From Patescibacteria group bacterium (lineage in GTDB: Bacteria; Patescibacteriota; Patescibacteriia; Patescibacteriales; UBA12465), in assembly GCA_041658665.1 (NCBI GenBank), contig JBAZZR010000001.1, forward strand, positions 192,576-256,575: a stretch of 64,000 bases of DNA, read 5' to 3'. This document shows positions 31,777 through 60,559 of the stretch, in pieces (position 1 is the first letter of the stretch; every line of letters starts with the position of its first letter). The notes below the pieces were generated by a model. It ran no database searches, was not told the DNA's origin, and saw only the letters and a program-made list of their open reading frames with translations. A program made the translations under genes and the position numbers.

Positions 31777-34700
31777 ATGCCTTTATCTTTCGGGCGGAAA
31801 TTAACCTTTTTACTGGCCGTTTTTATATTAAGCGGTGGTTTTTTATTAGTGTTTCCGGCGCAAAATGCTTTAGCTTATCATTCGCCTTCAAGTTATCAAA
31901 AACTTTATAACGATACCCTTACTTCCGATAACTGGAATGAACTACTTTTTTCTACTTCGACTCAGCCGGCCGGCACCGGCGATTTCGTTAATACTTGGCT
32001 GCCGGCTTTTATGAACGGACCGCTCGGCGTCGGCATGAGTACTTTTTCAAACGCCGGAGTTAGTTTAGACGTAGTTGGAAAAATTAAGACTGATGATTTA
32101 TTTTCGACCGGTAATATCGGAATCGGTACGACCATTCCATCGGCGCGACTCGAGGTCGCGGCTTTATCCGGCTATTCTATTTTAGGAGGTAGCCAGAAAA
32201 TCGGTAACGTCGCTAGTCCGACAGCGAGTTCCGACGTCGCGACTTTAGGCTGGGTTAATTCCGCTATTTCTTCAGCGACTGGCAGTATTACTCTTTGGGG
32301 CGGAACAACGGGCGGAAATATTTGGAATTTAAATTCGGGAAATATCGGAATCGGGACAACCGCGCCGGGTAGCTATAAATTAAATGTTCAAGGCGGGGAT
32401 GTTAATTTCGGCGGCGCTATTTTAGTAGCGGGAGCCTATGCTTATTTTGGTAATCCGGCTTCCGGCGCTTATTCGAACTTTGTCGGTAACAACGCGCCGG
32501 GGAAGACTTCTTTCGCGATCCGCGGGGCGACGAGTCAAACAGCTAATATTTTTAAAATCACTGACGCGACCGGAACGGCGGCGTATTTAGACGTTAACGC
32601 TTCGGGAAATGTCGGAATTGGGACGGCGAGTCCGCAAAGTAAATTACATGTTAGTGAGGACAGCGGGACTGGTGGATCTATTCAGGTTACCAGAGTTGGT
32701 CAGTATTCCTCTATTTTATATGGGAGCGATCTTAATTTCGACAGAGCGTCGACTGCATATATTACTGCTTCAAATGCGGCGGGTGCATTAAGTCTAAGAA
32801 CAGGTGGGTATAATAATCGATTGACAATATTATCAGGTGGAAATATTGGAATCGGGACGGCTAATCCAGCTAAGTTATTAAATTTATATGCTAGCTCTAC
32901 TTCGCCAACCGAATTATTAATTGAAAACAGTGGTTCAAATGGTTTTACTTCAGCTAGCATTATATTAAAAGGGAACGGTCCAAGCATATCATCTGAGGGT
33001 ATTTATAATTGGTCTCCTACTTACAGTAGCGGTAGCGGTTGGTATTTTGGTAGACCTTATGGTGGTGACGGTTTTTCGGTAAATTATCAAACAGGAGTGT
33101 TTAATGCTAATACCGCAAATGTTTCTAGGTCATTATTTTATATAACAAGTGCCGGTAACGTCGGAGTTGGTACGACTACTCCCGCCGCTAAATTAGAAGT
33201 TGCAGCTATTACTGGCTACTCTATTTTAGGCGGCAGTCAGAAAATAGGTAACGTCGCTAGTCCAACAGCTAACTCAGACGTCGCGACTTTAGGCTGGGTT
33301 AATTCGGCTATCTCTTCAGCCACTGGTAGTATTACTCTTTGGGGCGGAACGACGGGCGGAAATATTTGGAGTTTGAATTCGGGGAATGTGGGGATTGGAA
33401 TTACTAATCCTACGGCTAAATTAGAATTAGAAGTTAATGTGGGAAATGGAAATAGTTATGATATTTTAAAATTCAGTGGAAATTCAGGTGACTATGGGGG
33501 GTTGTGGCTTAAAAGTGAATGGAATTCTGGTCAGCAAAGTCGAATTGGATTCTATGGAACGAGCAGTACTTATAGAGGTATTGGATTTGCGACTAATGGA
33601 GCGACTACTCCCAATGTCTACATTAACGAAAGCGGCAACGTCGGTATCGGCACTACTACTCCCGCGTATAAATTAGAAGTTTTAGGTACATTAAATTTAC
33701 CAACTAATAATGCTATAAGATTCGATAGTACTAATAATAATGCTCCTTGGTATATTAGGAATTCTGGTACGGGCATGTCGACTTTATCTTTCGGTATCGG
33801 CGCTATTCAAAATTCTAATGATAAAATTGTCTTTAGTAGCTCCGGTTATTTAGGGGTTGGGACAAGTACGCCAGTCGCTAAATTAAATGTTGATAATGGA
33901 GATATTAGTGTAACTAATTCAGCGGCAGCAGGAGCGACGCGTGAAATAAGTGTTAGCCAGGTTAACGCCGGAGGAGGATGGGCAACGGCAATTGGTGCTG
34001 CGCCAGGCGTTTCTTATTTACGATCAATTCAAGGTGATCCGTTACAATTAAGAAGTGGAACGACGACGCTTATGTACTTAATGGGAAACGGTAATATTGG
34101 TATCGGTACTACCGCTCCCGCCGCTAAGTTAGAAGTCGCGGCCTCATCCGGCTATTCTATTTTAGGCGGCAATCAGAAAATTGGTAACGTTGCTAGTCCG
34201 ACGGCGAATTCCGACGTCGCGACTTTAGGCTGGGTTAATTCGGCGATCTCTTCAGCGACCGGCAGTATTACTCTTTGGGGCGGAACAACGGGCGGAAATA
34301 TTTGGAGTTTGAATTCTGGGAATGTGGGGATTGGGACAAGCGCGCCGGGCTATAAATTGGACATGCAGAATGTAGCAATTAATGGACAAACCTTGTTAAA
34401 TCTTGAAACTGTTGGTGAAAATAGTGCAAGACTTTTACGGCTAGCCGGTACTGCTCAAGCGGGTATTAATTTTACCAATACCGAAGTTAACCGAGATGAT
34501 TATGAGTTATACAATAATTATGGCACTTTTCAATTATATAATACTACTGACTCAAGGGTAGATATTCAGGTTACTTCTGGTGGCAATGTTTTATTGTCTC
34601 AGTCGGCTGGCAACGTCGGGATTGGAACAACTACGCCGGCTACAAATCTTCATGTTCAAGGTAGGGGGAATGTAGAGGGTAATGGAGTTGGAATATTGAA

Positions 34701-37700
34701 TCGCGCTGATATCCCAGGGTTGATGCTCTTAGATGATAGCACGGAATATGGAGCGTTACTGAATTACTATTCGGGTGATTTGAGAATTTTTAATAAAAAT
34801 AGTGCTAATAATTTTGCCATCTCCGACATGGCCATGATTATTAAGGGATCGGGCAACATTGGAATTGGAACGACTGCGCCAGAAGCCAAAATACATATCG
34901 CCGCTAATGATTTTACTACCAGTCTAATGGATTCGGCCGGAGGTACTTGGTGGTATGGTAATTATGATTATTACAGAAGATCAAGGGGAACTTTGTCGGC
35001 CAGGACTGCAGTCCAAGATGGAGATTTAATTGTAAATCATAATTATCAAGGGTATGACGGTAGTACTTGGCAGACAGGAGCGGGATTTCAGGTAAAAGTA
35101 GATGGCGCGGTTACGAGCGGTATAGTACCGATGCAATATTATTTAGAGAATCGTGGAGCAGATGGAATTTGGCGACAGAATTTAGTGATTAGATCGACCG
35201 GCAACGTCGGCATCGGGACGACTTCTCCTGTTGCTAAACTCGAGGTTGCGGCTTCATCCGGCTATTCTATTTTAGGCGGCAGTCAGAAAATAGGTAACGT
35301 CGCTAGTCCGACCGCGAATTCCGACGTCGCGACTTTAGGATGGGTTAATTCCGCTATTTCTTCGGCTACCGGCAGTATTACTCTTTGGGGCGGAACAACG
35401 GGTGGAAATATTTGGAGTTTGAACTCGGGGAATGTGGGGATTGGGACAAGCGCGCCGACTGCGAAACTTGATGTGAATGGAGATTTTAATCAGGGGCATA
35501 TCCTAACGAGCTATTCATCTTATGTCACTACTGGAGTACCTGAATATAAAACTGTTACTTTAAACGCAGTAGATGGTACAACATTGGATTGGTCGGCTAT
35601 GTATAGAATAAGAGTAGCTGTCAGCGGAGATACCTCAACTCAAACGGGGGCGACCTATCTAGTTTGGGATTCTTCTAGTTATGTCGGTGATGCGCGAGTT
35701 TGGAATATTAGAATGGTTAATAGAGCAGGAAGTACTTCTAATCATGTTCAAGCGAGATTAAACGGAAATACTGTCGAGGTATATCATACTCTCAATCCTA
35801 ATAGTTATGAGATAGCTGTTTTTGTAGAAAAGCTCGAAACTAATAATCAGAGCAGCCTTAGTTTATTTGGGGCGGATTATACTTGGCAAAGAGATATTAA
35901 TAGTCTTTATTACACAGACGGCAACGTCGGTATCGGCACAACTACGCCCAGTACAAAATTAGATGTATTTGGTAGCATACGTCTCGGTGACGGTGGAACT
36001 AATTCTGCTTTAACATTCAATTCTACTTTAAATGGATATTTAGTTTTAGGTGGTACGGCTAATTTATCAGTTTATCAAAATAGCGTGTATCCAATTACTA
36101 GTGAAGGGGCTGGCGCCGTTGGCAATACTCTATATTTAAAACAAGGTAATATTGGTATTAAGACGGCAAATCCTAGAGGAAACTTAGATGTAACCGGAGC
36201 GGACGCAGCCGCTACCACAGGAGCGACCGCTAATGGCGGACTTATTATTAGTGGATCTGGAACTGGAGTTATTAATTCAATGGGTGTTTATTCTGCCGGA
36301 ACTCCTTACGCTTGGATTCAGCCAAGATATGCAACAAGCGCTACATATTATAATTTAATTTTGAATCCTAACGGCGGCAACGTCGGCATCACTACCGCTA
36401 CTCCGACCGCTGAATTAGAAATGGGATTAGGCGCTGGCTATTCTATCCTCGCCGGCAGTCAGAAAGTAGGTAACATTGCTCTGCCGACTATTGCTTCAGA
36501 CGCGGCGACTAAAGGATATGTTGATTCATCTATTGGTAGCGGGATAAACGGTTCGACTAATTATATTCCTAAATTTACTGGGGCAAATTCTATCGGCGAC
36601 AGTGTTATAAGACAACAAACTTCTGGTGGTACCGGAGTCGATGTCGGCGCATATGTTTCTTTAGGTTTTTCTGGTTCTAATTATGGTTCAGTGGGTTATA
36701 ATTTAGCTTTTTTAGCCACGAGCAGCCAATTTAATTATCGTCATACAGACACCGCCTCTAAATTAGAGTTTGCTTCTGGCGGATTTCAATTCGAAACAGC
36801 GCCTTCAGGAACGGGTGGAACAGCTATTTCATTTTCTCGCGCTTTGACTATTTTGCAGAATGGTAATATTGGAATTGGGACACCATCGCCAAGTTCGAAA
36901 TTAGAAGTAAGCTCCGTCACTGGAACAGTTGATTCTGGTTCAGGATTGGAAATAACTGGTACTGGAACAGGGGCACAGAGCTGGTATATAACTCCTACAG
37001 CATCTCAAACACTTCTTATCGGTCGCCCGGCTTTAAGATTAATAGCTATCGGTAATGATGGTAGTCTTGGAGGAGGAGGTTTGGGTTCTGACGCGGCGGC
37101 AAGCACTGACGCGGCATATTATTTCAATGGTAGTGCGGGTAATTCTTGGATTAATGCCGGGAATGTGGGAATTGGGACGACGGGGCCGGGTAAATTGTTG
37201 GAATTGTCTTCGACATCAGCACCTTCTTTAAGAATTAGAAATACAAATTATACCCCAAATAGAACCTTTGATATTGTAGCTCAAGATTCTGGCGGTCTCT
37301 ATATTGTTGATAAAGACAGCCATTATTTAATGAATATTAATGACACCACCAATGGCATTATAATAGGCACATCTTATGCTACTGGTGCTTATAGTCCGCC
37401 ATCAGATGGATTATTAGTACAAGGTAACGTCGGTATCGGTACCACTTCTCCCGTCGCTAAACTCGAGGTCGCGGCTTTATCCGGCTACTCTATCCTCGCC
37501 GGCAGTCAGAAAATAGGGAACGTCGCTCTACCGACTGCTGTTTCGGACGCGGCGACTAAAGGATATGTTGATAGTTCTTTTGCTCCGGGCGGGAGTAATT
37601 CTCTTTGGAACGGTACTTCGACGGGAAATATCTGGAATATGAATTCTGCTAACGTCGGTATCGGAACGACTAATCCGACTGATAAATTATATGTATCCTA

Positions 37701-38295: not shown

Positions 38296-38312
38296 TGAAT
38301 TGGGATATGATG
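38283..38312 (+). repeat. Perfect 15-bp tandem duplication (ATTGGGATATGATGA x2)
   Basis: The copies are at 38283..38297 and 38298..38312. The first copy contains the TGA stop of giant gene 1. Confidence 0.9.
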
Positions 38313-38321
38313 AATAAAAAA

Positions 38322-38330
38322 TGTTATAAT
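38322..38330 (+). promoter_or_regulatory. Extended -10 promoter TGTTATAAT
   Basis: An exact TGTTATAAT lies 12 nt upstream of ATG 38342, so the leader is very short or the transcript is near-leaderless. Confidence 0.45.
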
Positions 38331-38341
38331 TAGCAGACGGT

Positions 38342-41300
38342 ATGAGACACAGAAATAAAAATATAATATGGCTAGTTGTTCTCGGCTCATTGCTGTCTTT
38401 TTCGGTTGCTTCGGCGAAGAATTTTACGATTTATAATGCGCTTAATATTAATCAGCCATATTTTTCAGTTAACGGCACGACTGGCAACGTCGGCATCGCT
38501 ACCACTACTCCAGCCGCTAAATTAGAAGTAGCCGCTCTATCAGGTTATTCTATTTTAGGCGGTAATCAGAAAATCGGAAACGTTGCTAATCCGACGGCGA
38601 GTTCTGATGTCGCGACTTTAGGCTGGGTTAATTCAGCTATTTCTTCAGCAACTGGTAGTATCACTCTCTGGGGCGGAACAACGGGCGGAAATATTTGGAG
38701 TTTGAATTCGGGGAATGTGGGAATTGGGACGAGTAATCCAGCTAATAAATTACATATTTATACAAACACAGCAAGGACAGATCAATTAGTTCTTCAAAAT
38801 CCATCAGGTTCCGCTACCACTCGCACTCACTTTGGAAGCTGGTACGATGCTACTGTATTAGCTCAAAATGCTTATTTCAATAATGGTTGGACCGCAGATG
38901 ATGTCACTAAGGGCTCAACTCAAATATCAATGGGTGTTAGTGATATTGTTTTTCAAACAGCTCCAGCAGCGGCAACTCCAAGTTTTGCTACAAGGATGAC
39001 AATAACAAACAATGGCTCCGTCGGCATCGGTACAACTAATCCGGGAGTTAATAAAGTCTCTATAAGTGGAGCGTTCACTAGTGCAGCCAGTAATTCAAGT
39101 TTATTTGTTTCACAAACCGGCGGCACGGCTATTAATGATGCGACTGGTATTTATCCGGCCATATATGGTTATTCGAATTTGCCAGGCTGGTATGCCAATA
39201 ACCTCGCAATCGGAGTAAAAGGGGAAGCTAGGAACGAAAGCAGAATAGGGTCTACACACAGAATAGGTGTCTGGGGGCATGCGGAATATAATGAGAATAG
39301 TGCTTATACTACTTATGCTTACGAAGGAGGAAGTTTGCGGGCAGGATATTTTGATAATATAGTAACCTGGACATCGGGACAGAAACCTCTTACTACTGCC
39401 TATGGGTTATATGTAAAGGCAGTAAATTTAGGAACTGGTAGTAGAGTTAATAATGTATATGGTTTATACCTTGATAATAATACGATAAATGGAACAGTTG
39501 AGGGCGGACAGTACGGCGTATATCAATTAGGTAGCGGAGTAAATAATTATTTTGCGGGAAATGTCGGCATCGCTACCACTACTCCCGCCGCTAAATTAGA
39601 AGTGGCGGCTTTATCGGGTTATTCTATCCTGGCCGGCAGTCAGAAAATTGGTAACGTGGCTAATCCAACCGCGAATTCTGATGTTGTTACTTTAGGTTGG
39701 CTTAATTCGGCGATTGCCCCTCTTAACCCCGGAGGTTCTAATTCTCTTTGGAACGGAACTTCGACGGGAAATATTTGGAGTGTTAATTCCGGAAATGTGG
39801 GGATTGGGACGACGAATCCGGCGGCTAAAGCGGACATTAACGTCGGTGGCTGGGGAACTGGAGCGCATGTCGCTTTTGATGATATTGTTGATAGTTATCC
39901 TGCTATAAAGCTTTACGCTCATACTGGTGATGGTACTACTTTCAAAAGTTATCAGCAGGCTGTTAATAGCGCTGGCACTTTAAAATTTTATTCAGGGAGT
40001 TCTGCTGTGTTAGGCGCTGAGACTTTGACTGAAAGAATGGCAATAACAACCGGCGGCTACGTCGGCATAGGCACAACTACGCCGCGAGCTCTATTGGATG
40101 TTTATGGTAATGCAACAATCGGAGGTTCTTTAATTGTTAACGATAATGCTACCGGTTACGGAACGGCCGCCAGTCTTAAACTTCAATATGATCAAGATAA
40201 TAATTTTTATGAGTTAGGGACGAGATTCCCAGATTTTTTCATTAAACAAAATACAACAGAATTTTTGACAATTAAAAGTGGTACGGGCAACGTAGGCATC
40301 GGGACGACAAACCCGGGGCAGAAATTAGATGTTTATCCTTCATCGGGTGACTCGGCTATCAGAATAAGATCGGCTGACGGTAACGCACAATTATATATTG
40401 ACGCAGGTGGGACAAATAAAAATTCGGGCGTCTCTTATAATCTGTCAGGAGCACAAAAATGGTTTGCCGGCTTGAAATATGGTAGTACTAATAATTTTGC
40501 AATTTATGAAGCGGATGGCTCTGATACTTCAAGATTAACAATAATCCCGGGAGGAAATACCTATCTCGCCCAGAATGGCGGCAACGTCGGCATCGCTACC
40601 ACTACTCCCGCCGCTAAATTAGAAGTAGCTGCTTTATCTGGCTATTCTATATTAGCTGGTAATCAAAAAATTGGTAACGTGGCCGCTCCTTTGATCACTG
40701 GAGATGTTGTTACTCTCGGTTATTTACAGAGCTATGTTAACGCTTCTTCTTCTGACTTATGGAGCGGGACTAAGGACGGAACTATTTGGAACGGCGCGGC
40801 TGGATCGGGTAAAGTCGGGATTGGGACAGTTAACCCGACAGCGAAACTTTCTATTAACGCTACGGGGACGCCGTCAACGGTTCAGGCCTTATCAGTAGTT
40901 GGTAATGGAGCTTGGGGTTCAGGATACTTAGCCTCCCTTGGTAATTATACTTCGATATCTCAAACTAGTAGCGGACAAGGATTTATGTCTTGGGGCGCTT
41001 ATAATAATGGTTCAAGTTGGGTACGAACTTATGACGGCGGAATGGGTCTAGCTAATTTAGTTTTTGGCACTGGTCCATATTTTAGTATTCAAACCGATAC
41101 GGCCACGTCGGGAGTCCCGAATTTTGTCGACCGTTTAACGGTTGGTACTAGTGGAAATGTTGGGATTGGGATAAACCCATCACACAAACTTGATGTAAAC
41201 GGAACTATAAATATTGCAAGAGGTTCAAATTTGTTTTTTGGAAGTGGAGATGCCGGTCTTTCAAGTAATTTCGGAACTACTGGATACCTAGCCTTCAATA

Positions 41301-52881: not shown

Positions 52882-52883
52882 TT

Positions 52884-52912
52884 TTGACCTCCGGAGCGCG
52901 AAATGTTATAAT
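52884..52912 (+). promoter_or_regulatory. Near-consensus promoter of giant gene 3 (TTGACC-17-TATAAT with TG extension)
   Basis: TTGACC at 52884..52889, a 17-nt spacer, and TGTTATAAT at 52904..52912. Confidence 0.6.
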
Positions 52913-52945
52913 TATCCTATAATGATTATTTTAAAAAATATTGCT

Positions 52946-55900
52946 ATGTCCAAAAAAATTCAAGTTTTTTTGGTTTTTACCTTACTCCTTTTTTTTACTT
53001 TTAATACCGCTCAAGCTTCGACCGTGACGGCCACTACAACCTTCTCAACTACTACGGTTTTTGCCGGTAATGTTGGAATTGGGGTGACGAATCCGACTTC
53101 GCCTCTTCATGTTGTAGGTAACATGTATTTAACTGGCACTATCGAATCGGCGGCTACTAATTTTTCTTTATATGCCGCCTGGAGTAACGCCGGTAGTATT
53201 CGATTTTTAGCGGGTAATAATGGAACGACTTGGTACGAAAGAATGAAAATAATGTCTTCTGGCAACGTCGGAATTGGAACGAGTGCGCCGGGAGCCTTAC
53301 TTCATCTTAGTTCTTCTACGCCGACTTTATTAATTCGTCCGACAGATCCTCTTAATGATGCGATGATTGATCTTAACTGGGCAGGCATTGTTAGCAGCCT
53401 GCGCCTTCGTTATAACCCGAATAGTGCGATGTCTTATATAGAAACGACTTATACGCCGACTGTCGGAACGGTCTATGGCGATATTGCGTTTAGAACTAAT
53501 GCTCTTGGTACTCCTAAGAATTTATTATATCTAGCTAACTATAGCGCTAACGTCGGAATAGGAACGACTAATCCGTTAGGCAAATTAGATATCATAGAAA
53601 GCGGTAATCAGATCAGAATAGATGCGGACGGGAGCGGAACAAATTACGGCGGGTATCCGTTAACATTAAATCGTACCGGGAGTAGTGCTGATGGCATCTT
53701 GATGCATGGCGCTTATGTTGATAATGCTACTTATTACTGGGGGCAAACGCACGGGTCATTCGGCGCCAGAGGAATCAATCTCAGTTATGGCGCGGGAATT
53801 AGTTTTTATGCCGATAATGTGGCTACGACCCTGAATACATCATTTACTCCGACAGAAAGGATGAGAATCACTAATGCCGGCAACGTCGGCATCGGGACGA
53901 CAACGCCGACTGCCGAATTAGAAATGGGTTCAGGCTCCGGTTATTCTATAAAGGCTGGTAATCAGAAGATTGGCGATGTCGCTAATCCAGGTGCTGATTC
54001 TGACGTTGTGACTCTTGGTTGGCTTAATTCGGCTATTGCTCCCCTTAACCCCGGAGGCTCTAATTCTCTTTGGAGCGGAACCTCGACTGGAAATATTTGG
54101 AATACTAATTCGGGTAACGTCGGGATTGGGACGACTAATCCGACGGCTAAATTAAGTATAGGAGACGGAATAAATTCCTTACCTGCAAGTACAACTTTGT
54201 GGATTAAGGGGGTTAGCGGAACTGGGAGGACAAATAGAATTTCTTTAGGGTTGAATAATAATCAAGATTATGGAATATATATTGCTGAAAATAATGTTGA
54301 TTATTCTTCTGGGCAAATTGCAGAATTTGGGACCAGATATGGAGGTACTGATTATCCAGCCTTGTATTTACGTTCTGGAAACGTCGGAATTGGAACAAGT
54401 AGCCCATCTTATCTTTTAACTGTTGGTAATAATAACCAGTTTACAGTTGGCAGTACTGGTTCTGTGCAGGCAAGCGGTTATCAATGTAATGGCGGATCCT
54501 GTTCATATTCTTGGGGTGGAGATACTAATATTTATCGTGACGCGGCTGCTTATATTCTTGGTTTAAGATATGGCACTAATCCGATGACTTTTAGAATTTA
54601 TAATACTTATACCGATGCTTCGAATTATGAAAGATTAGCTATCGCTGGAGCGGCTGCTGGCGCCTATACTATTACTAGCCAAGCGGCGGGGACGGGAGTA
54701 GTTAGAAATATAGCTTTAATGGGCGGGAATGTGGGGGTTGGGACGACGACGCCACAACGAACACTCCAGGTTAATGCAGCAGATATTCCTCTTGGAGGTG
54801 GAGCGGCGATGCAGTATGGAGGCAATTTACTTATTATGTCCAATGATTCCGCTGCCATTGATAAAGGTGGCAGCATAGGCTTTGGCGGAAATTATAGTGG
54901 AACGTCGCCATGGACATTTGCTTCGATTAAAGGTGCACGAGAAAATGTTACTTCAGGAACAGGATATTTAGCATTTTTTACAGAATTAAATGGTTTTCAT
55001 AATGAGCAAATGCGTATAAATAGCTCTGGCAATATTGGAATTGGGACGACTACCCCTGCCGCTAGATTAGAAGTAGTTGATAACGCAGTAGTGAGTTATA
55101 GTATATTAGCCGATGATAAGAGAATCGGTAATGTTTCTTTACCTTCTTTAGCTTCAGATGCAGCGACTAAAGGTTATGTCGATAGTGCCATACCTCTGAC
55201 CGCTTCTTTATGGAACGGAACTACAACTGGAAATATCTGGAATGCTAATTCGGGAAATGTGGGAATTGGGAAAACAAATCCAGCTAAAAAATTAGAAGTT
55301 TTTGGAGATATTGCTTTGTCTAATGGAGGTAAAATTGGTCAAGGTAATGGCTGGGGTACGGATGGTAATTCATATAATGCTACTCTCGAATTATATAATG
55401 GCGCTACTGGTTATACTACCTTACAATCAGCTACGTCGTATGGGTTATTGTTAAACCCCGCTGGTGGCAATGTCGGAATTGGGACAACAACACCAGCGAA
55501 TAAATTACAAGTTATGGGTGACATAGATATAAGGAGCGGCGGATTAAAAATGTTTAATGGAAGCTATGGACTTTCTGCTGTTGATGGCACTTTGTTAAAA
55601 ATAAATCAAGGTGGTTTTAATAATACTGCTTTTATAACCGGCAACGTCGGAATTGGAACGACCACTCCGTTAAATAAATTACATATATCTGGTGGCGTTT
55701 CCGGCGGAACTCCTTATGAAGCTACTGGGGGCCTAACTATTGAACGAAGTGCGAGAGTTTCAATGCAGTTTTTATCGCCCAACACTACCGATCAATATAT
55801 TTTCTTTGGCGATCCGCAAGCGGCTAATCGGGCTTGGGTTGGTTATAATCATGCTACTGATCAATTATTATTACATACCGGCGGGACCACTTATATGGAC

Positions 55901-58900
55901 GGCAACGTCGGCATCGGAACATCGACTCCGGGGTACAAGTTAGACGTGACGGGCAGTATTAATTCCGGTGGCATCGGTGTTAATGGTTCTCTTTATCTTA
56001 ATAGTGCCGCCGATGGATTAGGCGGTGGGAGTTTGGTATATAGTAATGTGAGTAATACTTTAACGCTCGGTCAAAATAGAGGTGTCGCCTCAAAATTATT
56101 ATTAAGTGCAGCCGGTATTGAACTTCAAACTGAGGATAGTAGCTCCCCTTATAATAAGGTTACTAGAATTATAGTTAAGCATGGCGACTCCGGCCTCGTC
56201 GGAATTGGGACGACTACTCTTGCTAACGCTAAATTAACTATTGTTCCTAACGGTCAGACCTACGCAATTGATGCTGGGAATTATAAGATTGGTAATGTGG
56301 CCGCTCCTTCTGCTAGTGCCGATGTTGTGACTCTCGCCTATTTACAAAGTTATGGGAACGCCTCTTCTTCTGAATTATGGAGCGGGACTAAGGACGGGGC
56401 TATTTGGAATGGCGCGGCCGGTGCAGGGAATGTGGGGATTGGAACGACGAATCCTTTAGCAAAGTTACATATTTATGGTGCATCAAATATAGAAGAGCGC
56501 ATTCAAGCGACTAGTAGTCCTTATGGCGCAAAATTGAATTTATATTATTCAGATAATTCTGGCGGTTCTATGCTCTATACTGCCGCCGATGCTCATCTTT
56601 GGATAGACAACTATTACCAAGCTTCTAACGAAGCGGCTGGTTATGGCGATATTCAGTTTAGAACAAAGACTCTAGGAGGTACAACCTTAACCAATAATAT
56701 GGTTATCAAGGGATATAGCGGCAATATAGGAATTGGGACATCTACTCCCAGCGATGTCTTACATATTTATAAAAGTGGTGTTGCTACTGATTATGTGGCG
56801 AATTCAATAGCTGAGGGAGTAAATTTACGTATATCAAATCCCGGAAATAATTGGGGCGGTGTGGCTGGTTTAATCTTTGAAAATTCTGGCGCCGTTGCCG
56901 GCACTGGATACGCGAAGATTGGCGCTACAATAAATGACACCTCTGATTCTGATTTATTTTTTCAGATTTCCAATGCTGGAACAATCGCCGAAGGGATGAG
57001 AGTTGCAAGCACTGGCAACGTCGGGATTGGGACGACGGCACCGGGAAGTATTCTTTCTATTCTAAAGTCCTCTACTTATAATAACGAGAATTCAGGCGGA
57101 ATTGAAATAGCAACAGGAGTTGCAAATACAAATGCTAAATTAATTTTAGGAGCAGTTGCAGATTCGTATAGTTACATTCAATCAATGCAACAGGATTGGG
57201 ATTGGACTTCCAGGCCTCTTGTGTTGATGCCAAATGGCGGTAACGTCGGGATTGGGACGACAACGCCGACTCAGAATTTGACAGTCGGCAGCGCTGGGAG
57301 CGCCGGTAATGCTACTTATAATATCGGGGCTAATCGTATGGCAGTAAATAGTAGTTTTTACTCTTATGATTATATTTGTGCCGGTAATGACAGCGGAGCT
57401 TGCGATACTACCAATGGTGTAGTTATTCGTGGTGGGAATACGCCGAATACGTCCGCTAACGTAAGTTTAAGTCGTGGGATTTCGTTTTTTAATGGTGGCA
57501 ACGTCGGAATCGGAACGACGAACCCGACACAGAAGTTAGAAGTAGTCGGCTCCGGTTATTCTATCCTCGCCGGCAATCAGAAAATAGGGAACGTCGCTGT
57601 TCCTTCCGTCGCCGCTGATGTCGTCACTCTCGGTTATTTACAGAGTTATGTTAACGCTTCTTCTTCTGATCTGTGGAGCGGAACTAAAGACGGTAATATT
57701 TGGAACGGCACGGCTGGAGCGGGTAAAGTCGGAGTTGGGATTACTTCTCCTTCCGCTAATTTTCATGTCGCTTCCCCAATGGTTACTGACTCCGCTAACA
57801 ACGTCGTGGAGATTGGTGAAAATTATACAAACATGAATCACTCCATATTGCGTTTGCAGGGAAGCGCGATGACCAGCAACGGCTACTTTTTAGCTGCTCA
57901 GGACGGCAATTCTGGGTTATATAAATTTGTGGTTAGAGGCGATGGTAACGTGGCGATTGGAACATCAAGCCCGTCGGCTTTACTTGATGTTTTCGGTGCT
58001 CCTGGTAAAGCCGTGCTTTCGAGTGCGGCGGGCTTGACGCCGGCGGCCGGAACAATTCTTGGTACCCTTGGATTTAGGAATACTCAGTATAGTACTGATA
58101 GCGCCTATATTCATGCGATTACTGAAAACGTTTGGGCTGGTGCAGATTATCCTACCGCTCTCGCATTTTTTACCACCACTGATGGCGCTATTTCCTCTAG
58201 CGAGAAAGTAAGGATTAATAACGCCGGTAGTGTCGGGATTGGGACGACTAATCCGGGAACAAATTTACATGTTGTAGGAACTGGACGTTTTTCTGATTAT
58301 TTATATTTTGGAAGTTCTTCTGTTCAAAGTTACATGTATCATAATAATAGTGATTTAACTTTAAGAATTGGCGGAGATGATGATATCGCATTTTTTGTTG
58401 ATGGACAAACTACGCCTAAGGCCATTATTAAATCTAGCGGCAACGTTGGAATCGGAACGACGAGCCCAGCTTTTAAATTAGATGTTAATGGTCTGGCAAG
58501 ATTTAATGGTAATTATTTAAGAATACAAAATTCTAGTGCGTCAAACAGTGGATATATAGACTTTGGTAATGCTGACGCTTATGTAGGATATCAGACGGCA
58601 GGAACATTTAATATAAAACATTGGGATGGCACAGACTATTATGAATCACTTAGAATTAATGGGCCAAGCCATTTTACTTTATTATCGCCGATTGAAGGAA
58701 ATGTTGGTATCGGAATAACGAGTCCCGCCGCTAAATTAGAAGTAGTCGGTACCGGTTACTCTATTTTAGCCGGCAGTCAGAAAATCGGTAATGTCGCCGT
58801 TCCTTCGGCCGCCGCCGATGTCGTCACTCTCGGCTATTTACAGAGCTATGTTAATGCTTCCTCCTCTGATTTATGGAGCGGGACTAAAGACGGTAATATT

Positions 58901-60559
58901 TGGAACGGCGCGGCCGGTGCGGGTAAAGTCGGAATTGGGATTACTTCTCCTTCCGCTAATTTTCATGTCGCTTCCCCAATGGTTACTGATTCCGCTAACA
59001 ACGTCGTGGAGATTGGTGAAAATTATACAAACATGAATCACTCCATATTGCGTTTGCAGGGAAGCGCGATGACCAGCAACGGCTACTTTTTAGCTGCTCA
59101 GGACGGTAATTCCGGATTATATAGATTCGTAGTTAGAGGTGATGGTGCTGTTGGGGTCGGAACATCGACTCCCGCCACAGAGTTAGTCGTAGTCGGTACG
59201 GGGACTCTTACTGGTTCATTAATCGCCGGCGGCGGTTCTAGCTCAAACTGGGCGACATTAAATGCCGGTGGGACGCAGAGTATTAATGCTAATGGCTCAA
59301 TTTATAGTTATAACTCTGTTTGTGTCGGTAATGCCTCGGGTTTATGTAATGGTGCCGGCGGCGTAGTTATTGGTCTAACTAATGCTACAGCCTCTACTAA
59401 TATACCGTCCTCTGGTAATACTATTTTTAATAATGGTGGCAACGTCGGAATTGGGACAACGGCGCCGTCCTATTTTCTTGATGTCTCTAAATCTCAAAAT
59501 GCCGGAACGTCTTTCCGAGTCGCTAACGCAAATACCGGTACAGGGTCATTTTCTAATTTCATGTTGACTAATAATGGCGCTAACGCTCTTTATACCTTTA
59601 TGTTCGGAACGAATTATTCATCAGCTACAACTAGATATATGGCTGACTCTGGGGTGGTTGATTCTCAAGGATCTAATGGTTTGAATTTAGCCGCTTCTAA
59701 TGCCGCTGGTGTTATTAGATTTTATACCAATGCCAATAACGAGCGGATGAGAATTGCCGCTAATGGAAATATCGGTATCGGAACGACGAATCCGAATTTT
59801 GATAGTGAAAATTTGGCTTTAGATGCAAAAGCTTACATAAGTTATATAGGAACATCTGAGACATCTACAAGTATAGCTCCGGGGGTCGTTATACATAATA
59901 GCGGAAATGTATCTGGACCAACCACATTAGTATTAGCAAAAAGTCGTTCAACGGCAGAGGGCTTGATAAACGCCAACGATGAAATTGGTGGTATTGCTTT
60001 TGCTAGCGCTGATGGTGGTGAGTTCTTAGGAGGAGCCTCAATAGTTGCCGTAAATGATGGGACCGCTGCAAATGATGATGCAGGGGCGCATTTAGATTTT
60101 AGGACAAGTGTAAGTTATAATGCAATGGCTGCAGCCAACACAAAAATGAGAATAACATCAGGCGGCAACGTCGGAATAGGGACGACGAATCCCGTCTATA
60201 AATTAGAAGTTATCGGATCTATTGGCGCTAGTACCGGAGTTTATACTAATACTTTTGGCGGTTATTCTGATAGAAGTCTGAAAAAGAATATTACTAGCCT
60301 CAATAATTCTTTAGCTAAAATTTTAAAACTTCGTGGGGTATCTTTTAATTGGAAGAGCGATAATAAAGACGGAATTGGTTTGATTGCGCAGGAGGTAGAA
60401 AAAGTTTATCCGGAGTTAGTCGCTACTGCCCCCAATGGCTTAAAAGCTATTCAGTATAGCAATTTAGTCGCCCCTTTAATTGAAGCGGTTAAAGCTCAGC
60501 AAGAAAAAATTAATCAGTTAGAAGTTAAAATTAATATTCTGGAGCATAGGCTTAAATAA
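52946..60559 (+). CDS. Giant secreted tail-fibre-like repeat protein 3 with C-terminal S74 intramolecular-chaperone domain
   Basis: The listed ORF starts at 52850, but the promoter at 52884..52912 and the signal peptide 'MSKKIQVFLVFTLLLFFTFNTAQA' favour ATG 52946 (ATG 52922 is also possible). It has 5 anchor modules and many GNVGIGTTxP motifs, and it ends in an S74-type domain. Confidence 0.85.
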   Translation: MSKKIQVFLVFTLLLFFTFNTAQASTVTATTTFSTTTVFAGNVGIGVTNPTSPLHVVGNMYLTGTIESAATNFSLYAAWSNAGSIRFLAGNNGTTWYERMKIMSSGNVGIGTSAPGALLHLSSSTPTLLIRPTDPLNDAMIDLNWAGIVSSLRLRYNPNSAMSYIETTYTPTVGTVYGDIAFRTNALGTPKNLLYLANYSANVGIGTTNPLGKLDIIESGNQIRIDADGSGTNYGGYPLTLNRTGSSADGILMHGAYVDNATYYWGQTHGSFGARGINLSYGAGISFYADNVATTLNTSFTPTERMRITNAGNVGIGTTTPTAELEMGSGSGYSIKAGNQKIGDVANPGADSDVVTLGWLNSAIAPLNPGGSNSLWSGTSTGNIWNTNSGNVGIGTTNPTAKLSIGDGINSLPASTTLWIKGVSGTGRTNRISLGLNNNQDYGIYIAENNVDYSSGQIAEFGTRYGGTDYPALYLRSGNVGIGTSSPSYLLTVGNNNQFTVGSTGSVQASGYQCNGGSCSYSWGGDTNIYRDAAAYILGLRYGTNPMTFRIYNTYTDASNYERLAIAGAAAGAYTITSQAAGTGVVRNIALMGGNVGVGTTTPQRTLQVNAADIPLGGGAAMQYGGNLLIMSNDSAAIDKGGSIGFGGNYSGTSPWTFASIKGARENVTSGTGYLAFFTELNGFHNEQMRINSSGNIGIGTTTPAARLEVVDNAVVSYSILADDKRIGNVSLPSLASDAATKGYVDSAIPLTASLWNGTTTGNIWNANSGNVGIGKTNPAKKLEVFGDIALSNGGKIGQGNGWGTDGNSYNATLELYNGATGYTTLQSATSYGLLLNPAGGNVGIGTTTPANKLQVMGDIDIRSGGLKMFNGSYGLSAVDGTLLKINQGGFNNTAFITGNVGIGTTTPLNKLHISGGVSGGTPYEATGGLTIERSARVSMQFLSPNTTDQYIFFGDPQAANRAWVGYNHATDQLLLHTGGTTYMDGNVGIGTSTPGYKLDVTGSINSGGIGVNGSLYLNSAADGLGGGSLVYSNVSNTLTLGQNRGVASKLLLSAAGIELQTEDSSSPYNKVTRIIVKHGDSGLVGIGTTTLANAKLTIVPNGQTYAIDAGNYKIGNVAAPSASADVVTLAYLQSYGNASSSELWSGTKDGAIWNGAAGAGNVGIGTTNPLAKLHIYGASNIEERIQATSSPYGAKLNLYYSDNSGGSMLYTAADAHLWIDNYYQASNEAAGYGDIQFRTKTLGGTTLTNNMVIKGYSGNIGIGTSTPSDVLHIYKSGVATDYVANSIAEGVNLRISNPGNNWGGVAGLIFENSGAVAGTGYAKIGATINDTSDSDLFFQISNAGTIAEGMRVASTGNVGIGTTAPGSILSILKSSTYNNENSGGIEIATGVANTNAKLILGAVADSYSYIQSMQQDWDWTSRPLVLMPNGGNVGIGTTTPTQNLTVGSAGSAGNATYNIGANRMAVNSSFYSYDYICAGNDSGACDTTNGVVIRGGNTPNTSANVSLSRGISFFNGGNVGIGTTNPTQKLEVVGSGYSILAGNQKIGNVAVPSVAADVVTLGYLQSYVNASSSDLWSGTKDGNIWNGTAGAGKVGVGITSPSANFHVASPMVTDSANNVVEIGENYTNMNHSILRLQGSAMTSNGYFLAAQDGNSGLYKFVVRGDGNVAIGTSSPSALLDVFGAPGKAVLSSAAGLTPAAGTILGTLGFRNTQYSTDSAYIHAITENVWAGADYPTALAFFTTTDGAISSSEKVRINNAGSVGIGTTNPGTNLHVVGTGRFSDYLYFGSSSVQSYMYHNNSDLTLRIGGDDDIAFFVDGQTTPKAIIKSSGNVGIGTTSPAFKLDVNGLARFNGNYLRIQNSSASNSGYIDFGNADAYVGYQTAGTFNIKHWDGTDYYESLRINGPSHFTLLSPIEGNVGIGITSPAAKLEVVGTGYSILAGSQKIGNVAVPSAAADVVTLGYLQSYVNASSSDLWSGTKDGNIWNGAAGAGKVGIGITSPSANFHVASPMVTDSANNVVEIGENYTNMNHSILRLQGSAMTSNGYFLAAQDGNSGLYRFVVRGDGAVGVGTSTPATELVVVGTGTLTGSLIAGGGSSSNWATLNAGGTQSINANGSIYSYNSVCVGNASGLCNGAGGVVIGLTNATASTNIPSSGNTIFNNGGNVGIGTTAPSYFLDVSKSQNAGTSFRVANANTGTGSFSNFMLTNNGANALYTFMFGTNYSSATTRYMADSGVVDSQGSNGLNLAASNAAGVIRFYTNANNERMRIAANGNIGIGTTNPNFDSENLALDAKAYISYIGTSETSTSIAPGVVIHNSGNVSGPTTLVLAKSRSTAEGLINANDEIGGIAFASADGGEFLGGASIVAVNDGTAANDDAGAHLDFRTSVSYNAMAAANTKMRITSGGNVGIGTTNPVYKLEVIGSIGASTGVYTNTFGGYSDRSLKKNITSLNNSLAKILKLRGVSFNWKSDNKDGIGLIAQEVEKVYPELVATAPNGLKAIQYSNLVAPLIEAVKAQQEKINQLEVKINILEHRLK
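53879..58950 (+). repeat. In-frame ~1.2-kb super-repeat, gene 3 (5 anchor modules)
   Basis: Anchor-module starts lie at approximately 53879, 55028, 56192, 57496 and 58697. The last two are offset by exactly 1200 bp. Confidence 0.85.
60266..60556 (+). other. Peptidase S74 / intramolecular chaperone auto-processing domain (tail-fibre/endosialidase type)
   Basis: 'YSDRSLKKNITSL...LRGVSFNWKSDNKDGIGLIAQEVEKVYPELV...AIQYSNLVAPLIEAVKAQQEKINQLE'. The Ser and Lys are 5 residues apart (S-D-R-S-L-K), as in the Ser-Lys dyad of this family. A C-terminal coiled-coil-like helix follows. Confidence 0.8.

What the first reader, a model, noticed from the sequence alone, without database searches (positions are those of the whole stretch)
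32111..58950. About 22 fibre super-modules with a conserved ~250-bp anchor and variable ~0.8-1 kb body, assembled from interchangeable head and tail subtypes
A conserved anchor module recurs every 0.94-1.32 kb: 6 copies in gene 1, 11 in gene 2 and 5 in gene 3.

Reading the protein shows two head types:
- '..AKLEV(A/V)..SGYSILAG.QKIGNVA'
- 'TTLANAKLTIVPNGQTYAIDAGNYKIGNVA'

There are at least three tail types:
- A: 'SDVATLGWVNSAISSATGSITLWGGTTGGNIWSLNSGNVGIGT'
- B: 'SDAATKGYVDS.FAPGGSNSLWNGTSTGNIWNMNSGNVGIGT'
- C: 'DVVTLGYLQSYVNASSSDLWSGTKDG.IWNGAAG.GKVGIGT'

Heads and tails occur in different combinations. There are also obvious hybrids, such as 'SDVVTLGWLNSAIAPLNPGGSNSLWNGTSTGNIW' at about 39660 and about 53990. 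The stretches between anchors are mutually divergent.

Each unit is about the size of a small tail-fibre gene (about 340-440 aa). The pattern therefore looks like many fibre units fused head to tail, with the conserved anchors acting as recombination handles for shuffling variable bodies.
Basis: seen in the sequence. Interest (0 to 1): 0.75.

Follow-up and report, generated by a model that had tools for sequence, protein, structure and literature searches.

The report
Giant bacterial fibres with periodic necks
Three huge secreted fibre proteins of an ultra-small (Patescibacteria) bacterium are chains of about 90 short beta-helix units. Every fourth unit is a highly conserved "neck" like the one at the base of phage tail fibres, and these necks swap short DNA patches with each other, so the repeat pattern is real but is best read as a structural element that also recombines.

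Summary
There are exactly 22 anchors (6, 11 and 5), spaced 936-1323 nt apart, with the stated head types, tail types and hybrids.

What it is:
- Three Sec-signal fibre proteins (2172, 4061 and 2537 aa) lie in a Patescibacteria chromosome, directly downstream of a type IV pilus cluster.
- They are built from 90 units, each delimited by a "GNVGIGT..P..KL" capping loop and homologous to Bdellovibrio MAT trimeric beta-helix fibres. One protein ends in a Peptidase_S74 chaperone.
- Each anchor is one special unit, usually every fourth. Its core resembles the end of the N-terminal domain of T7-like phage fibres and the necks of trimeric autotransporter adhesins.

How it evolves:
- Same-type anchor tails show pN 0-0.03 against pS 0.1-0.5, while the variable units between anchors are saturated (about 30% aa identity).
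- Sharply bounded identical DNA patches of 83-122 nt, a PHI test (z = -14) and four-gamete head/tail combinations show short-tract gene conversion.
- Other Patescibacteria have the same architecture. One related genome has a different unit order, joined inside a capping loop.

Recombination is real, but conservation acts on the protein, and the junctions are capping loops and sub-anchor motifs. I class this as a new variant of a known kind.

The parts
31777..38295 (+). Fibre gene g1 (2172 aa): Sec-type signal peptide, 23 capping-loop units of which 6 are anchors, and no distinct tip domain.
   Evidence: (NCBI MFA5886350.1 / WC863_01065)
38342..50527 (+). Fibre gene g2 (4061 aa): signal peptide, 39 units of which 11 are anchors, and a non-S74 C-terminal tip.
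52946..60559 (+). Fibre gene g3 (2537 aa as called; the open frame runs from 52850): signal peptide, 28 units of which 5 are anchors, and a C-terminal S74 chaperone.
60266..60421 (+). Peptidase_S74 intramolecular chaperone/protease domain of g3, with the 'SDRSLK' motif.
   Evidence: E 1.4e-16; 6F45, phage long tail fibre
49994..50524 (+). C-terminal tip region of g2, after 'YLPLAGGTM'. It has no recognisable relatives.
32110..32337 (+). Anchor g1_1 (head H1, tail A).
33154..33381 (+). Anchor g1_2 (head H1, tail A).
34090..34317 (+). Anchor g1_3 (head H1, tail A).
35200..35427 (+). Anchor g1_4 (head H1, tail A).
36376..36561 (+). Anchor g1_5 ('AELEMG' head with an 'NYIPKF..NS' type connector). 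Its core is 98% nt identical to that of g2_8.
37423..37647 (+). Anchor g1_6 (head H1, tail B).
38483..38710 (+). Anchor g2_1 (head H1, tail A).
39557..39790 (+). Anchor g2_2 (head H1, A/B hybrid tail).
40580..40807 (+). Anchor g2_3 (head H1, tail C). Its head is 96% nt identical to that of g2_1; the tails are unrelated.
41594..41818 (+). Anchor g2_4 (head H1, tail B). It shares an 83-nt exact run with g2_6.
42917..43141 (+). Anchor g2_5 (head H1, tail B).
43997..44221 (+). Anchor g2_6 (head H1, tail B). It shares a 104-nt exact run with g2_7.
45053..45283 (+). Anchor g2_7 (head H2, tail B). It is a clear recombinant, with the breakpoint at the KIGNVA core.
46253..46462 (+). Anchor g2_8 ('AELEFG' head, 'FWNLNGSNLFASS' tail).
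47348..47578 (+). Anchor g2_9 ('ARLEVVDNAVV' head, tail B).
48590..48823 (+). Anchor g2_10 (head H2, tail C). It shares a 122-nt exact run with g3_3.
49817..50041 (+). Anchor g2_11 (head H2). This terminal anchor leads into 'YLPLAGGTM' and the tip.
53879..54112 (+). Anchor g3_1 ('AELEMG' head, A/B hybrid tail).
55028..55252 (+). Anchor g3_2 ('ARLEVVDNAVV' head, shortened B tail).
56192..56425 (+). Anchor g3_3 (head H2, tail C).
57497..57721 (+). Anchor g3_4 ('KLEVVGSGYS' head, tail C). It forms the first half of a 450-nt duplication together with the next unit.
58697..58921 (+). Anchor g3_5 ('KLEVVGTGYS' head, tail C). It is 98.6% aa identical to the anchor of related contig L009.
50645..51286 (+). 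gA: a membrane-anchored cupredoxin-like protein between g2 and g3. It is syntenic with the fibre genes in other Patescibacteria.
51400..52881 (+). gB: a 493-aa protein of unknown family with an N-terminal transmembrane segment. It is syntenic with the fibre genes in other Patescibacteria.
19895..31259 (+). Upstream context: a type IV pilus cluster (PilM, PilB, PilC; FemAB and YbeY interposed; orf28079; three N_methyl pilin-like genes at 29498-31259). It lies in conserved order with the fibre genes.

Best explanation
The region encodes three giant, secreted, probably trimeric surface fibres of a Patescibacteria (CPR) bacterium.

**Architecture**
- Each protein is a chain of beta-helix units of about 94 aa, bounded by 'GNVGIGT..P..KL.V' capping loops. 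There are 90 units in all, homologous to the shaft units of Bdellovibrio MAT fibres and of S74-type phage fibres.
- The 22 'anchors' are one special class of unit, normally every fourth unit.
- An anchor consists of a capping loop, two or three short strands, then the motif 'KIGNVA.P....DAATKGYVDS' (a strand, a turn and a short helix), and finally one of several connectors ('tails') that lead back into the next capping loop.
- The same motif closes the N-terminal domain of T7-like phage fibres and tailspikes, and it resembles the neck of trimeric autotransporter adhesins.

**Inferred role**
- I infer that the anchors are periodic necks. They would re-register and clamp the three chains, and perhaps act as hinges, along a shaft of the order of 0.1-0.3 micrometres.
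- That role would explain why their protein sequence is held almost constant.

**Recombination**
- Because the necks stay similar, they also undergo short-tract gene conversion with each other, within and between the three genes.
- Breakpoints fall at the most conserved motifs: the capping loops, the KIGNVA core and the end of DAATKGYVDS.
- This conversion produces the head/tail mosaics and hybrids.
- Over longer times, whole units are re-assorted at capping loops.

**Likely function**
The fibres most likely mediate attachment to host cells, together with the adjacent type IV pilus system.

**Shown versus inferred**
- Shown: the unit and anchor anatomy, the homologies, the purifying selection, the conversion patches, the conserved synteny, and the same architecture in other genomes.
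- Inferred: the trimeric state, the neck/hinge role, the fibre length and the attachment function.
For: **Anatomy**
- There are 90 capping loops and 22 anchors, all in the three genes.
- 14 of 19 inter-anchor intervals hold 3 variable units.

**Homology of the units**
- PDB 8OND Bd2133 matches at E 5.9e-9, and 8OML also matches.
- Caulton 2024 (PMC10769870) describes these as trimeric beta-helix domains bounded by capping loops with a V-G-..-P-...-L motif.
- PHROG tail-fibre families match at up to 4.9e-94.
- Peptidase_S74 matches at 1.4e-16.

**Homology of the anchor**
- The anchor profile hits residues 115-180 of phage tailspikes and fibres: 9M4C/9M4D (5e-6), 8I4M gp28 (1e-3) and gp9.
- Phage_T7_tail matches 9 of 42 anchors and YadA_stalk matches 3 of 42 (best 1.6e-5).
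- AF2 models of the anchor give short strands plus a helix at TKGYVDSS, with the best pLDDT (84-87) on IGNVA..DAATKGYVD.

**Selection**
- Same-type tails show pN 0.00-0.03 against pS 0.07-0.48.
- The pS expected at saturation is 0.77 +/- 0.09.
- The variable units show pS 0.70 and pN 0.52.

**Conversion**
- Exact runs of 104, 83 and 122 nt sit in pairs whose flanks are at random-level identity, with sharp patch edges.
- The PHI test gives z = -14.

**Generality**
- 11 proteins show anchors 62-100% identical within a protein, against 19-25% for the following unit.
- 3605 cluster representatives carry the motif.
- In L003-L005 anchor pS is 0.41-0.80, so conservation there is by selection alone.

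**Context**
- The contig is 821,845 bp from a Patescibacteria MAG.
- The order PilB-PilC-...-pilins-fibres-gA-gB is conserved in at least 9 other loci.
Against: - No trimer model or experiment was possible. The monomer AF2 model of unit-anchor-unit is poor (pLDDT 48.7).
- Foldseek matches of the anchor model to TAA necks and T7-like fibre N-termini are not significant (E > 3).
- The neck/hinge role is an analogy, not a test.
- pS below saturation within anchor types could partly reflect selection on synonymous sites rather than conversion.
- Surface location and host binding are inferred from signal peptides read by eye and from synteny only.
- Only one related genome fragment (a contig at 3.6x coverage) documents reordering.
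Confidence: 0.62

Rival explanations
1. The anchors are kept as recombination handles, and their function is to promote in-frame crossovers that shuffle, add or delete variable bodies. That would diversify host-binding fibres within the population.
For: - Mosaicism and conversion are real.
- 39 of 231 anchor pairs share at least 25 nt of exact identity, and 15 pairs share at least 35 nt.
- The anchors are in frame and regularly spaced.
- Recombination between g2_10 and g3_3 (122-nt identity) would fuse g2 to the S74 end of g3.
- A related genome has a different unit order.
- Single units recur in other species in different neighbourhoods.
Against: - Synonymous sites in anchors diverge freely while amino acids are fixed. 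Here pN/pS is about 0.03-0.1. In L003-L005 pS is 0.41-0.80, approaching but mostly below the 0.77 expected at saturation, yet the heads and cores are nearly identical.
- The median longest exact match between two anchors is 16 nt.
- Within this genome the only variable unit found at a second position is the one copied together with its anchor in the g3 duplication. Otherwise the copied segments are the anchors themselves.
- The one documented rearrangement junction lies in a generic capping loop with about 11 nt of shared sequence.
- There is no recombinase, reverse transcriptase, silent cassette or inverted copy in the window.
Confidence: 0.2
2. The anchors are docking sites. As in T7-like phages, where this region belongs to the domain that docks the fibre on the tail, each anchor would bind another component, such as side fibres, the pilus, or the cell wall/S-layer. 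The fibre would then be a branched or tethered assembly.
For: - The anchor is homologous to the end of the particle-binding N-terminal domain of phage fibres and tailspikes.
- Purifying selection is very strong.
- Synteny with pilin-like genes and with gA/gB is conserved.
Against: - Only the last strands and the helix of the phage domain are present. The jelly-roll that makes the contacts in P-SCSP1u is absent.
- No candidate partner carrying a matching dock was identified.
Confidence: 0.1
3. The pattern reflects simple recent tandem duplication of super-modules, or an assembly artefact that collapsed or chimerised repeats.
For: - One true segmental duplication exists: 57497-57946 against 58697-59146, at 89.6% nt.
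- A k=31 Logan assembly breaks inside anchors.
Against: - The bodies are saturated (pS 0.70, 30% aa identity) while the anchors are not. Identity patches stop exactly at anchor edges.
- The longest exact repeat (122 nt) is shorter than the 141-mer implied by the contig's name, k141_157777.
- The Logan contig is 100% identical over 6.3 kb.
- The same architecture occurs in many independent assemblies.
Confidence: 0.04
4. These are tail-fibre genes of a prophage or other mobile element.
For: - PHROG tail-fibre hits, the S74 domain and the T7-tail motif.
- G+C is higher than in the flanks.
Against: - There are no capsid, portal, terminase, tail or integrase genes in the 64 kb.
- The neighbours are PilB/PilC/pilins, FemAB, YbeY, ThrRS and TyrRS.
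- All three proteins have Sec-type signal peptides.
- The locus is syntenic across many Patescibacteria chromosomes.
Confidence: 0.02

Closest known systems
Bdellovibrio bacteriovorus MAT (mosaic adhesive trimer) fibres (Caulton et al. 2024, PMC10769870; PDB 8OND, 8OML)
   Same: - Secreted fibres of a bacterium that attaches to other bacteria.
- A shaft made of beta-helix units bounded by a capping-loop motif (sequence match E 5.9e-9).
- Both S74-terminated and non-S74 members in one genome.
- Chimeric evolution of parts.
   Different: - These proteins are 2-4 times longer (2172-4061 aa, against about 920-1150 aa for the MATs whose lengths are given).
- The periodic neck unit every fourth unit is not described in the parts of that paper I read.
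- g2 has only about 22 residues between the signal peptide and the first capping loop, so there is no room for the roughly 130-aa N-terminal domain common to all 21 MATs.
- The locus is tied to a type IV pilus cluster in a Patescibacteria genome.
N-terminal domain of T7-like phage tail fibres and tailspikes (T7 gp17 / Pfam Phage_T7_tail; P-SCSP1u gp28, 8I4M; Acinetobacter phage tailspikes 9M4C/9M4D)
   Same: The anchor head plus core ('..LTI.P......DA....I.NV..P....DAATKGYVD') aligns with residues about 115-180 of these proteins, that is the last strands plus the start of the trimer-forming helix.
   Different: - A phage protein has one copy, following a jelly-roll that docks on the tail.
- Here there are 22 internal copies without the jelly-roll, in cellular genes with signal peptides.
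Neck/stalk repeats of trimeric autotransporter adhesins (YadA, BadA, SadA, AtaA)
   Same: - Very long trimeric adhesins with a periodically repeated beta-to-alpha 'neck' carrying an 'I.NVA.G...DAVNV.QL'-like motif.
- Three of 42 anchors reach YadA_stalk (best 1.6e-5).
- There are local, non-significant structural matches.
- From my own knowledge: BadA neck/stalk repeats vary in number between strains by recombination.
   Different: - There is no YadA_anchor beta-barrel.
- The similarity is confined to about 30 residues.
- The intervening domains are MAT-type beta-helices rather than coiled-coil stalks.
Conserved-motif recombination in T-even phage distal tail-fibre genes (Tetart, Desplats and Krisch 1998; cited from memory, not read here)
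   Same: Short conserved motifs separate variable segments of a fibre gene and serve as crossover points that swap adhesin segments.
   Different: - There the exchanges were documented between phage genomes.
- Here exchange of variable units rests on one related contig and on unit 'islands' in distant species.
- Here the junction motif is the capping loop.

Membership tests
MAT-type trimeric beta-helix fibre (Caulton 2024) | Shaft of beta-helix units bounded by capping loops (V-G-..-P-...-L motif). | tested here: met
   90 motif copies. phmmer matches 8OND at 5.9e-9 and 8OML at 3.3e-5, aligned over whole units.
MAT-type trimeric beta-helix fibre (Caulton 2024) | C-terminus is either an S74 chaperone/protease with SDxxxK or an alternative tip domain. 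| tested here: met
   g3 has Peptidase_S74 (1.4e-16) with 'SDRSLK'. g2 has an unrelated 180-aa tip and g1 has none.
MAT-type trimeric beta-helix fibre (Caulton 2024) | Conserved beta-rich domain of about 130 aa directly after the signal peptide. | tested here: not met
   In g2 the first capping loop starts at residue 48, and in g1 at residue 112. The N-terminal sequence of the Bdellovibrio proteins was not available for direct comparison.
MAT-type trimeric beta-helix fibre (Caulton 2024) | Homotrimeric fibre displayed on the cell surface. | not testable with these tools
   Only monomer AF2 was available. The signal peptides were read by eye.
Phage tail fibre / tailspike with a T7 gp17-type N-terminal domain | Encoded in a phage structural module and part of a virion. 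| tested here: not met
   The neighbours are cellular. The locus is syntenic in Patescibacteria chromosomes.
Phage tail fibre / tailspike with a T7 gp17-type N-terminal domain | A single N-terminal jelly-roll plus helix that docks on the adaptor/nozzle. | tested here: not met
   Only the C-terminal 30-50 residues of the domain match, and they do so 22 times internally.
Trimeric autotransporter adhesin | C-terminal YadA_anchor beta-barrel translocator. | tested here: not met
   No such Pfam hit in g1-g3.
Trimeric autotransporter adhesin | Neck / YadA_stalk motif. | tested here: inconclusive
   3 of 42 anchors from the wider family match PF05662 (best 1.6e-5), but the window anchor scanned first matches none. 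BadA head matches at E 1.5. Foldseek gives E > 3.
Programmed variation systems (shufflon or Min/Gin-type inversion, silent-cassette conversion such as pilE/pilS, diversity-generating retroelement) | A nearby recombinase or reverse transcriptase, together with inverted repeats, silent promoterless copies or a template repeat. | tested here: not met
   No such Pfam families were found among the ORFs of at least 150 aa that were scanned (34 of 36). There are no anchor or capping-loop copies outside the three genes or on the - strand. There are no inverted repeats of 30 nt or more. This holds for the 64-kb window only.

The most novel reading that the evidence does not exclude
In many Patescibacteria a conserved host-attachment locus couples type IV pilus minor pilins to arrays of modular fibres. 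Periodic neck units and about 90 capping loops would make the shaft a combinatorial scaffold. Units and necks would be re-assorted within and between genes, and possibly between species, to retune fibre length and binding surfaces. On this reading the necks are both structural clamps and the preferred crossover points of a fibre-diversification system in episymbionts.
Probability: 0.2. Interest if true: 0.75.

Novelty: new variant of a known kind. Interest (0 to 1): 0.5.

Why it matters
- Patescibacteria are thought to live attached to other microbes, yet apart from type IV pili their attachment machinery is largely unknown.
- This locus, and its syntenic relatives in Falkowbacteria, Paceibacterota and other Parcubacteria, suggests that fibres as long as the cell itself are a standard partner of the pilus genes. 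The fibre length is an extrapolation from MAT fibre dimensions.
- The periodic neck unit is a design element not described in the parts of the MAT paper I read. It links three families of trimeric fibres: MAT fibres, T7-like phage fibres and TAA necks.
- It gives a concrete handle for structure prediction, for annotation (thousands of 'hypothetical' giant proteins) and for testing how very long trimeric beta-helices stay in register.
- The contrast between frozen necks and saturated shaft units, together with visible conversion tracts, makes this a clean natural case for studying concerted evolution inside single genes.

Tried and rejected
- NCBIfam gave no family for any of the three proteins.
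- Rfam and tRNA scans of the window found nothing.
- I looked for close strains to compare module order:
  - Two searches of the 5.8-billion-protein collection, with g1 and g3, found no homologue from any other assembly above 48% identity, and that only over short stretches.
  - The 90% clusters hold only this assembly.
  - A scan of JGI metagenome contigs with one whole body found only 35-46% relatives.
  - The only close relative came from the GTDB scan: two short contigs of MAG WB02no5_39_7.
- AF2 of unit-anchor-unit as a monomer was too poor to use (pLDDT 48.7).
- The anchor-only model (pLDDT 73) gave no significant Foldseek match.
- The g2 tip and gB have no PDB, Pfam or PHROG relatives.
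- I tested whether variable units at the same position within a super-module are more alike, which would indicate duplication of whole super-modules. No signal was found (p 0.27-0.71).
- I considered the unit 'islands' in L019 and L020 as evidence of recent horizontal transfer. I rejected this as unproven, because their pS is 0.54 and 0.71. They show unit-wise conservation in different neighbourhoods, not recent transfer.
- Literature searches for the motif, and for S74 proteins in Patescibacteria, found nothing.
- The Gracilibacteria 'hypervariable repeat' paper concerns an unrelated PTD repeat.
Full report
**Observation**

The window holds three very large + strand ORFs: g1 at 31777-38295 (2172 aa), g2 at 38342-50527 (4061 aa) and g3 at 52850-60559 (called as 52946-60559, 2537 aa). 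A profile built from the anchor finds exactly 22 copies in the six-frame translation of the whole window. All lie on the + strand inside these genes: 6, 11 and 5. Start-to-start spacing within genes is 936-1323 nt, with mean 1126 and SD 99.

There are three minor head variants in addition, and three anchors have other tails. The stretches between anchors are indeed divergent from each other.

**A lower level of repetition**

The motif 'GNVGIGT(T/S).P..KL.V' that bounds every anchor is not special to anchors. A profile of it finds 90 copies (23, 39 and 28), again only in these genes. The proteins are therefore chains of 90 units.

- 22 units are anchors of 70-78 aa. In two of them (g1_5 and g2_11) the next capping loop lies much further on or is absent.
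- 68 units are variable, with a median of 94 aa.
- The number of variable units between successive anchors is 3,3,3,3,2 in g1, 2,3,3,3,3,3,3,2,3,3 in g2 and 3,4,4,4 in g3.

A 'super-module' is thus one anchor unit plus about three variable units. The variable units are homologous to each other along their full length, but only at a median of 30% identity. The one close pair is g3 1625-1698 against 2025-2098 (97%), which is part of a 450-nt duplication that includes the preceding anchor.

**What the units are**

- g3 matches the solved Bdellovibrio MAT fibres 8OND (Bd2133, E 5.9e-9) and 8OML over whole units, and it matches a phage long-tail-fibre S74 chaperone at its C-terminus.
- Caulton et al. 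2024 (PMC10769870) show that these units are intertwined trimeric beta-helix domains about 60 Å high, bounded by 'capping loops' with a V-G-..-P-...-L consensus. MAT fibres come with or without a C-terminal S74 chaperone/protease.
- g3 has Peptidase_S74 (1.4e-16) with an 'SDRSLK' motif, while g1 and g2 do not.
- All three proteins hit PHROG tail-fibre families at 1e-50 to 1e-94, with 5-11 matched stretches each.
- NCBIfam has no model for them.

**What the anchor is**

- A profile of the 22 anchors matches residues about 115-180 of podophage tailspikes and fibres: 9M4C/9M4D at 5e-6, P-SCSP1u gp28 (8I4M) at 1e-3, and a gp9 fibre at 1.4e-3. The alignment covers both the 'head' and the core 'IGNVA.P....DAATKGYVD'.
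- Pfam gives weak Phage_T7_tail hits at profile positions 126-152 of 157.
- Among 42 anchors from this and related proteins, 9 reach Phage_T7_tail and 3 reach YadA_stalk, best 1.6e-5.
- AF2 monomer models are weak, but they agree on short strands followed by a helix at TKGYVDSS, with the highest confidence on IGNVA..DAATKGYVD.
- Foldseek finds only non-significant local matches. Notably, these are to the necks of trimeric autotransporter adhesins and to T7-like fibre N-termini.

I therefore read the anchor as a neck-type beta-to-alpha connector followed by a connector back into the next beta-helix. This is an inference from homology, not a demonstrated structure.

**Context**

- The sequence is part of an 821,845-bp contig of a Patescibacteria MAG, with NCBI locus tags WC863_01065/01070.
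- The neighbours are cellular: ThrRS, TyrRS, YbeY, FemAB and others. No phage genes were found.
- Directly upstream lies a type IV pilus cluster of PilM, PilB and PilC, followed by orf28079 and three N_methyl pilin-like genes that end 518 nt before g1.
- Between g2 and g3 lie a cupredoxin-like membrane protein (gA) and an unknown 493-aa protein (gB).
- The order PilB-PilC-orf25839-FemAB-YbeY-orf28079-pilins-[anchor-bearing fibre genes]-gA-gB recurs in many other Patescibacteria loci fetched with the anchor as query.
- In the closest of these (L003-L005) the fibres are three or four smaller tandem genes of 550-1420 aa, each with 2-5 anchors.

**Evolution of the anchors**

- Within a tail type, non-synonymous differences are almost absent (pN 0.00-0.03) while synonymous ones are plentiful (pS 0.07-0.48).
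- If synonymous sites were fully randomised under the genes' own codon usage, pS would be 0.77 +/- 0.09. The variable units show pS 0.70 and pN 0.52.
- The anchors are therefore under very strong purifying selection on the protein, and same-type anchors share more recent ancestry than the units that flank them.

That ancestry is patchy:

| Pair | Shared segment |
|---|---|
| g2_6 / g2_7 | Identical for 104 nt, from the KIGNVA core to the second capping loop; the heads belong to different types |
| g2_4 / g2_6 | 83 identical nt in the distal tail |
| g2_10 / g3_3 (different genes) | A 262-nt patch with a 122-nt exact run that starts and stops at the anchor's two capping loops; the flanks are at random-level identity |
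| g1_5 / g2_8 | Only the head and core |
| g2_1 / g2_3 | Only the head |

A PHI test on 138 informative sites gives z = -14, with 0 of 2000 permutations as low. The combinations H1/B, H1/C, H2/B and H2/C all exist.

This is the signature of short-tract gene conversion among anchors. Across all pairs, however, the median longest exact match is 16 nt.

**Other genomes**

- The anchor profile finds 3605 cluster representatives among 1.84 billion proteins at E <= 1e-3. They fall into two classes.
  - Giant GNVGIGT proteins with full anchors every 250-370 aa.
  - Proteins without GNVGIGT, in which only the core motif, often followed by 'LSLSGGTMTG', repeats every 45-160 aa.
- In 11 proteins of the first class, anchors within a protein are 56-100% identical (median per protein) while the unit that follows is 19-25% identical. 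In several proteins, anchors are clearly closer within a protein than between proteins.
- The tail types seen here (A, B-like, C-like, 'FWNLSGSNLFASS', 'LP.GT.GQTLRH', and the terminal 'YLPLAGGTMTG') recur in other organisms in other combinations.
- In L003-L005, anchor heads and cores are nearly identical in protein although pS is 0.41-0.80. There, conservation owes little to recent conversion.

**Re-assortment of units**

- A related MAG, WB02no5_39_7 (gA 98% aa identical, pS 0.27), supplies contig L009. It reads as follows: a unit 78% identical to g3 1699-1792; then a unit 95% identical to g3 1291-1388; then a 186-aa unit with no counterpart in the window; then an anchor 98.6% identical to g3_5; then a unit like g3 2025-2098.
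- This order differs from the window's. The first junction lies inside the GIGT codons of a capping loop, where the two window loci share only about 11 nt. A k-mer chimera is therefore unlikely, though the contig has only 3.6x coverage.
- Two g3 units also have close counterparts in otherwise about 27%-identical fibres of other species, next to unrelated units. They are 57014-57238 (95% aa to L019) and 57239-57496 (81% aa to L020). Their pS is 0.54 and 0.71, so this shows unit-wise conservation in different neighbourhoods rather than recent transfer.

'Fibre' and 'interchangeable heads and tails' hold, and recombination among the anchors is demonstrated. Three points change.

1. Super-modules are not complete small fibre genes fused together. 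They lack a docking domain and a tip, and they consist of a neck plus shaft units.
2. What selection preserves is the amino-acid sequence, not DNA identity. A structural or binding role is therefore the primary explanation, and recombination is at least partly a consequence.
3. Within this genome, what is copied is anchor pieces rather than bodies. The one inter-genome junction is at a generic capping loop, so the 90 capping loops are at least as good candidates for 'handles' as the 22 anchors.

There is no recombinase, reverse transcriptase, silent cassette or inverted copy in the window.

**Mechanism proposed (inferred)**

The three proteins are exported by Sec, trimerise (g3 with the help of its S74 chaperone) and form fibres. 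Scaling from MAT dimensions (60 Å per 135-aa unit; about 550 Å for Bd3182) gives roughly 0.1-0.3 micrometres.

The necks would act as periodic clamps or hinges that keep three intertwined chains in register over 23-39 units. The variable units would present diverse surfaces. The fibres would act with the neighbouring type IV pilus in attachment to host cells.

Because the necks stay similar, they exchange short tracts. Crossovers at necks or capping loops are automatically in frame, so they can change unit order and number over evolutionary time.

**Comparison and novelty**

The proteins work like MAT fibres, and share their shaft unit and S74 option, but they fail one MAT feature (the 130-aa N-terminal domain). 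They are much longer, and they carry a periodic neck unit that is not mentioned in the passages of the MAT paper I read.

They are not phage fibres, because the context is cellular. They are not trimeric autotransporters, because they have no anchor barrel. Even so, the neck motif links all three groups.

I found no paper describing these Patescibacteria proteins. I class the finding as a new variant of a known kind, of moderate interest.

Noticed in passing
window 19895-31259 and 50645-52881; loci L003-L017: The gene order PilB-PilC-orf25839-FemAB-YbeY-orf28079-three pilin-like genes-[fibre genes]-cupredoxin gA-gB is conserved in many Patescibacteria genomes. This suggests a functional link between the fibres, the minor pilins and gA/gB.
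   Followed up: partly
window 3913-4458; L020 4172-4800: A small gene pair (91 aa and 88 aa) looks like a RelB/RelE-type toxin-antitoxin pair by its sequence. It is 90.8% nt identical to a stretch of a contig from a different organism, so it is probably a mobile TA module.
   Followed up: partly
L018 1497-3028, against window 51340/51321: In the related MAG WB02no5_39_7, a 1.5-kb segment encoding a DUF4143-type ATPase is inserted between gA and gB. The window has its own DUF4143 ATPase at 60792-61916, after g3.
   Followed up: no
window 37423-38483: The anchor period is kept across the g1/g2 gene boundary. The last anchor of g1 and the first anchor of g2 are 1060 nt apart, with the stop codon, a 46-nt spacer and the g2 signal peptide taking the place of the third variable unit. 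The g1 end and the g2 start are both conserved in L019, so the boundary is old.
   Followed up: partly
window 57014-57496; L019 10793-11025; L020 1429-1720: Two adjacent variable units of g3 have 95% and 81% aa-identical counterparts in otherwise about 27%-identical fibres of other species, each next to unrelated units. Some shaft units are therefore strongly conserved and occur in different neighbourhoods.
   Followed up: partly
window 57497-57946 and 58697-59146: A 450-nt segmental duplication covers an anchor plus the next unit, at 89.6% nt identity. There is an identity gradient from 74% in the head to 99% in the following unit.
   Followed up: yes
window 49905 and 56242 (the ends of Logan contig L002): An independent k=31 assembly of run SRR8449812 is 100% identical to the window over 6.3 kb. 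It stops inside anchors g2_11 and g3_3, which share a 38-nt exact run. The anchors are what fragment short-k assemblies of such loci.
   Followed up: yes
window 1-12000 and 60000-64000, against 12000-60000: G+C is 0.33-0.37 in the outer parts and 0.40-0.45 over 12-60 kb, including the pilus and fibre genes. GC skew is positive throughout. I did not analyse whether this reflects amino-acid composition or an island.
   Followed up: no
proteins P0123, P0131, P0135, P0147 and others (one search hits): A separate class of long proteins lacks the GNVGIGT motif and repeats only the core 'I.N...P....DAATK.YVD....LSLSGGTMTG' every 45-90 aa. The neck motif therefore also exists as a tandem repeat in its own right.
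   Followed up: partly
window 25839-26324; L012 833-2338: orf25839 (161 aa), just after PilC, has three tandem copies in L012. It may be the major pilin. It was not scanned against Pfam.
   Followed up: no
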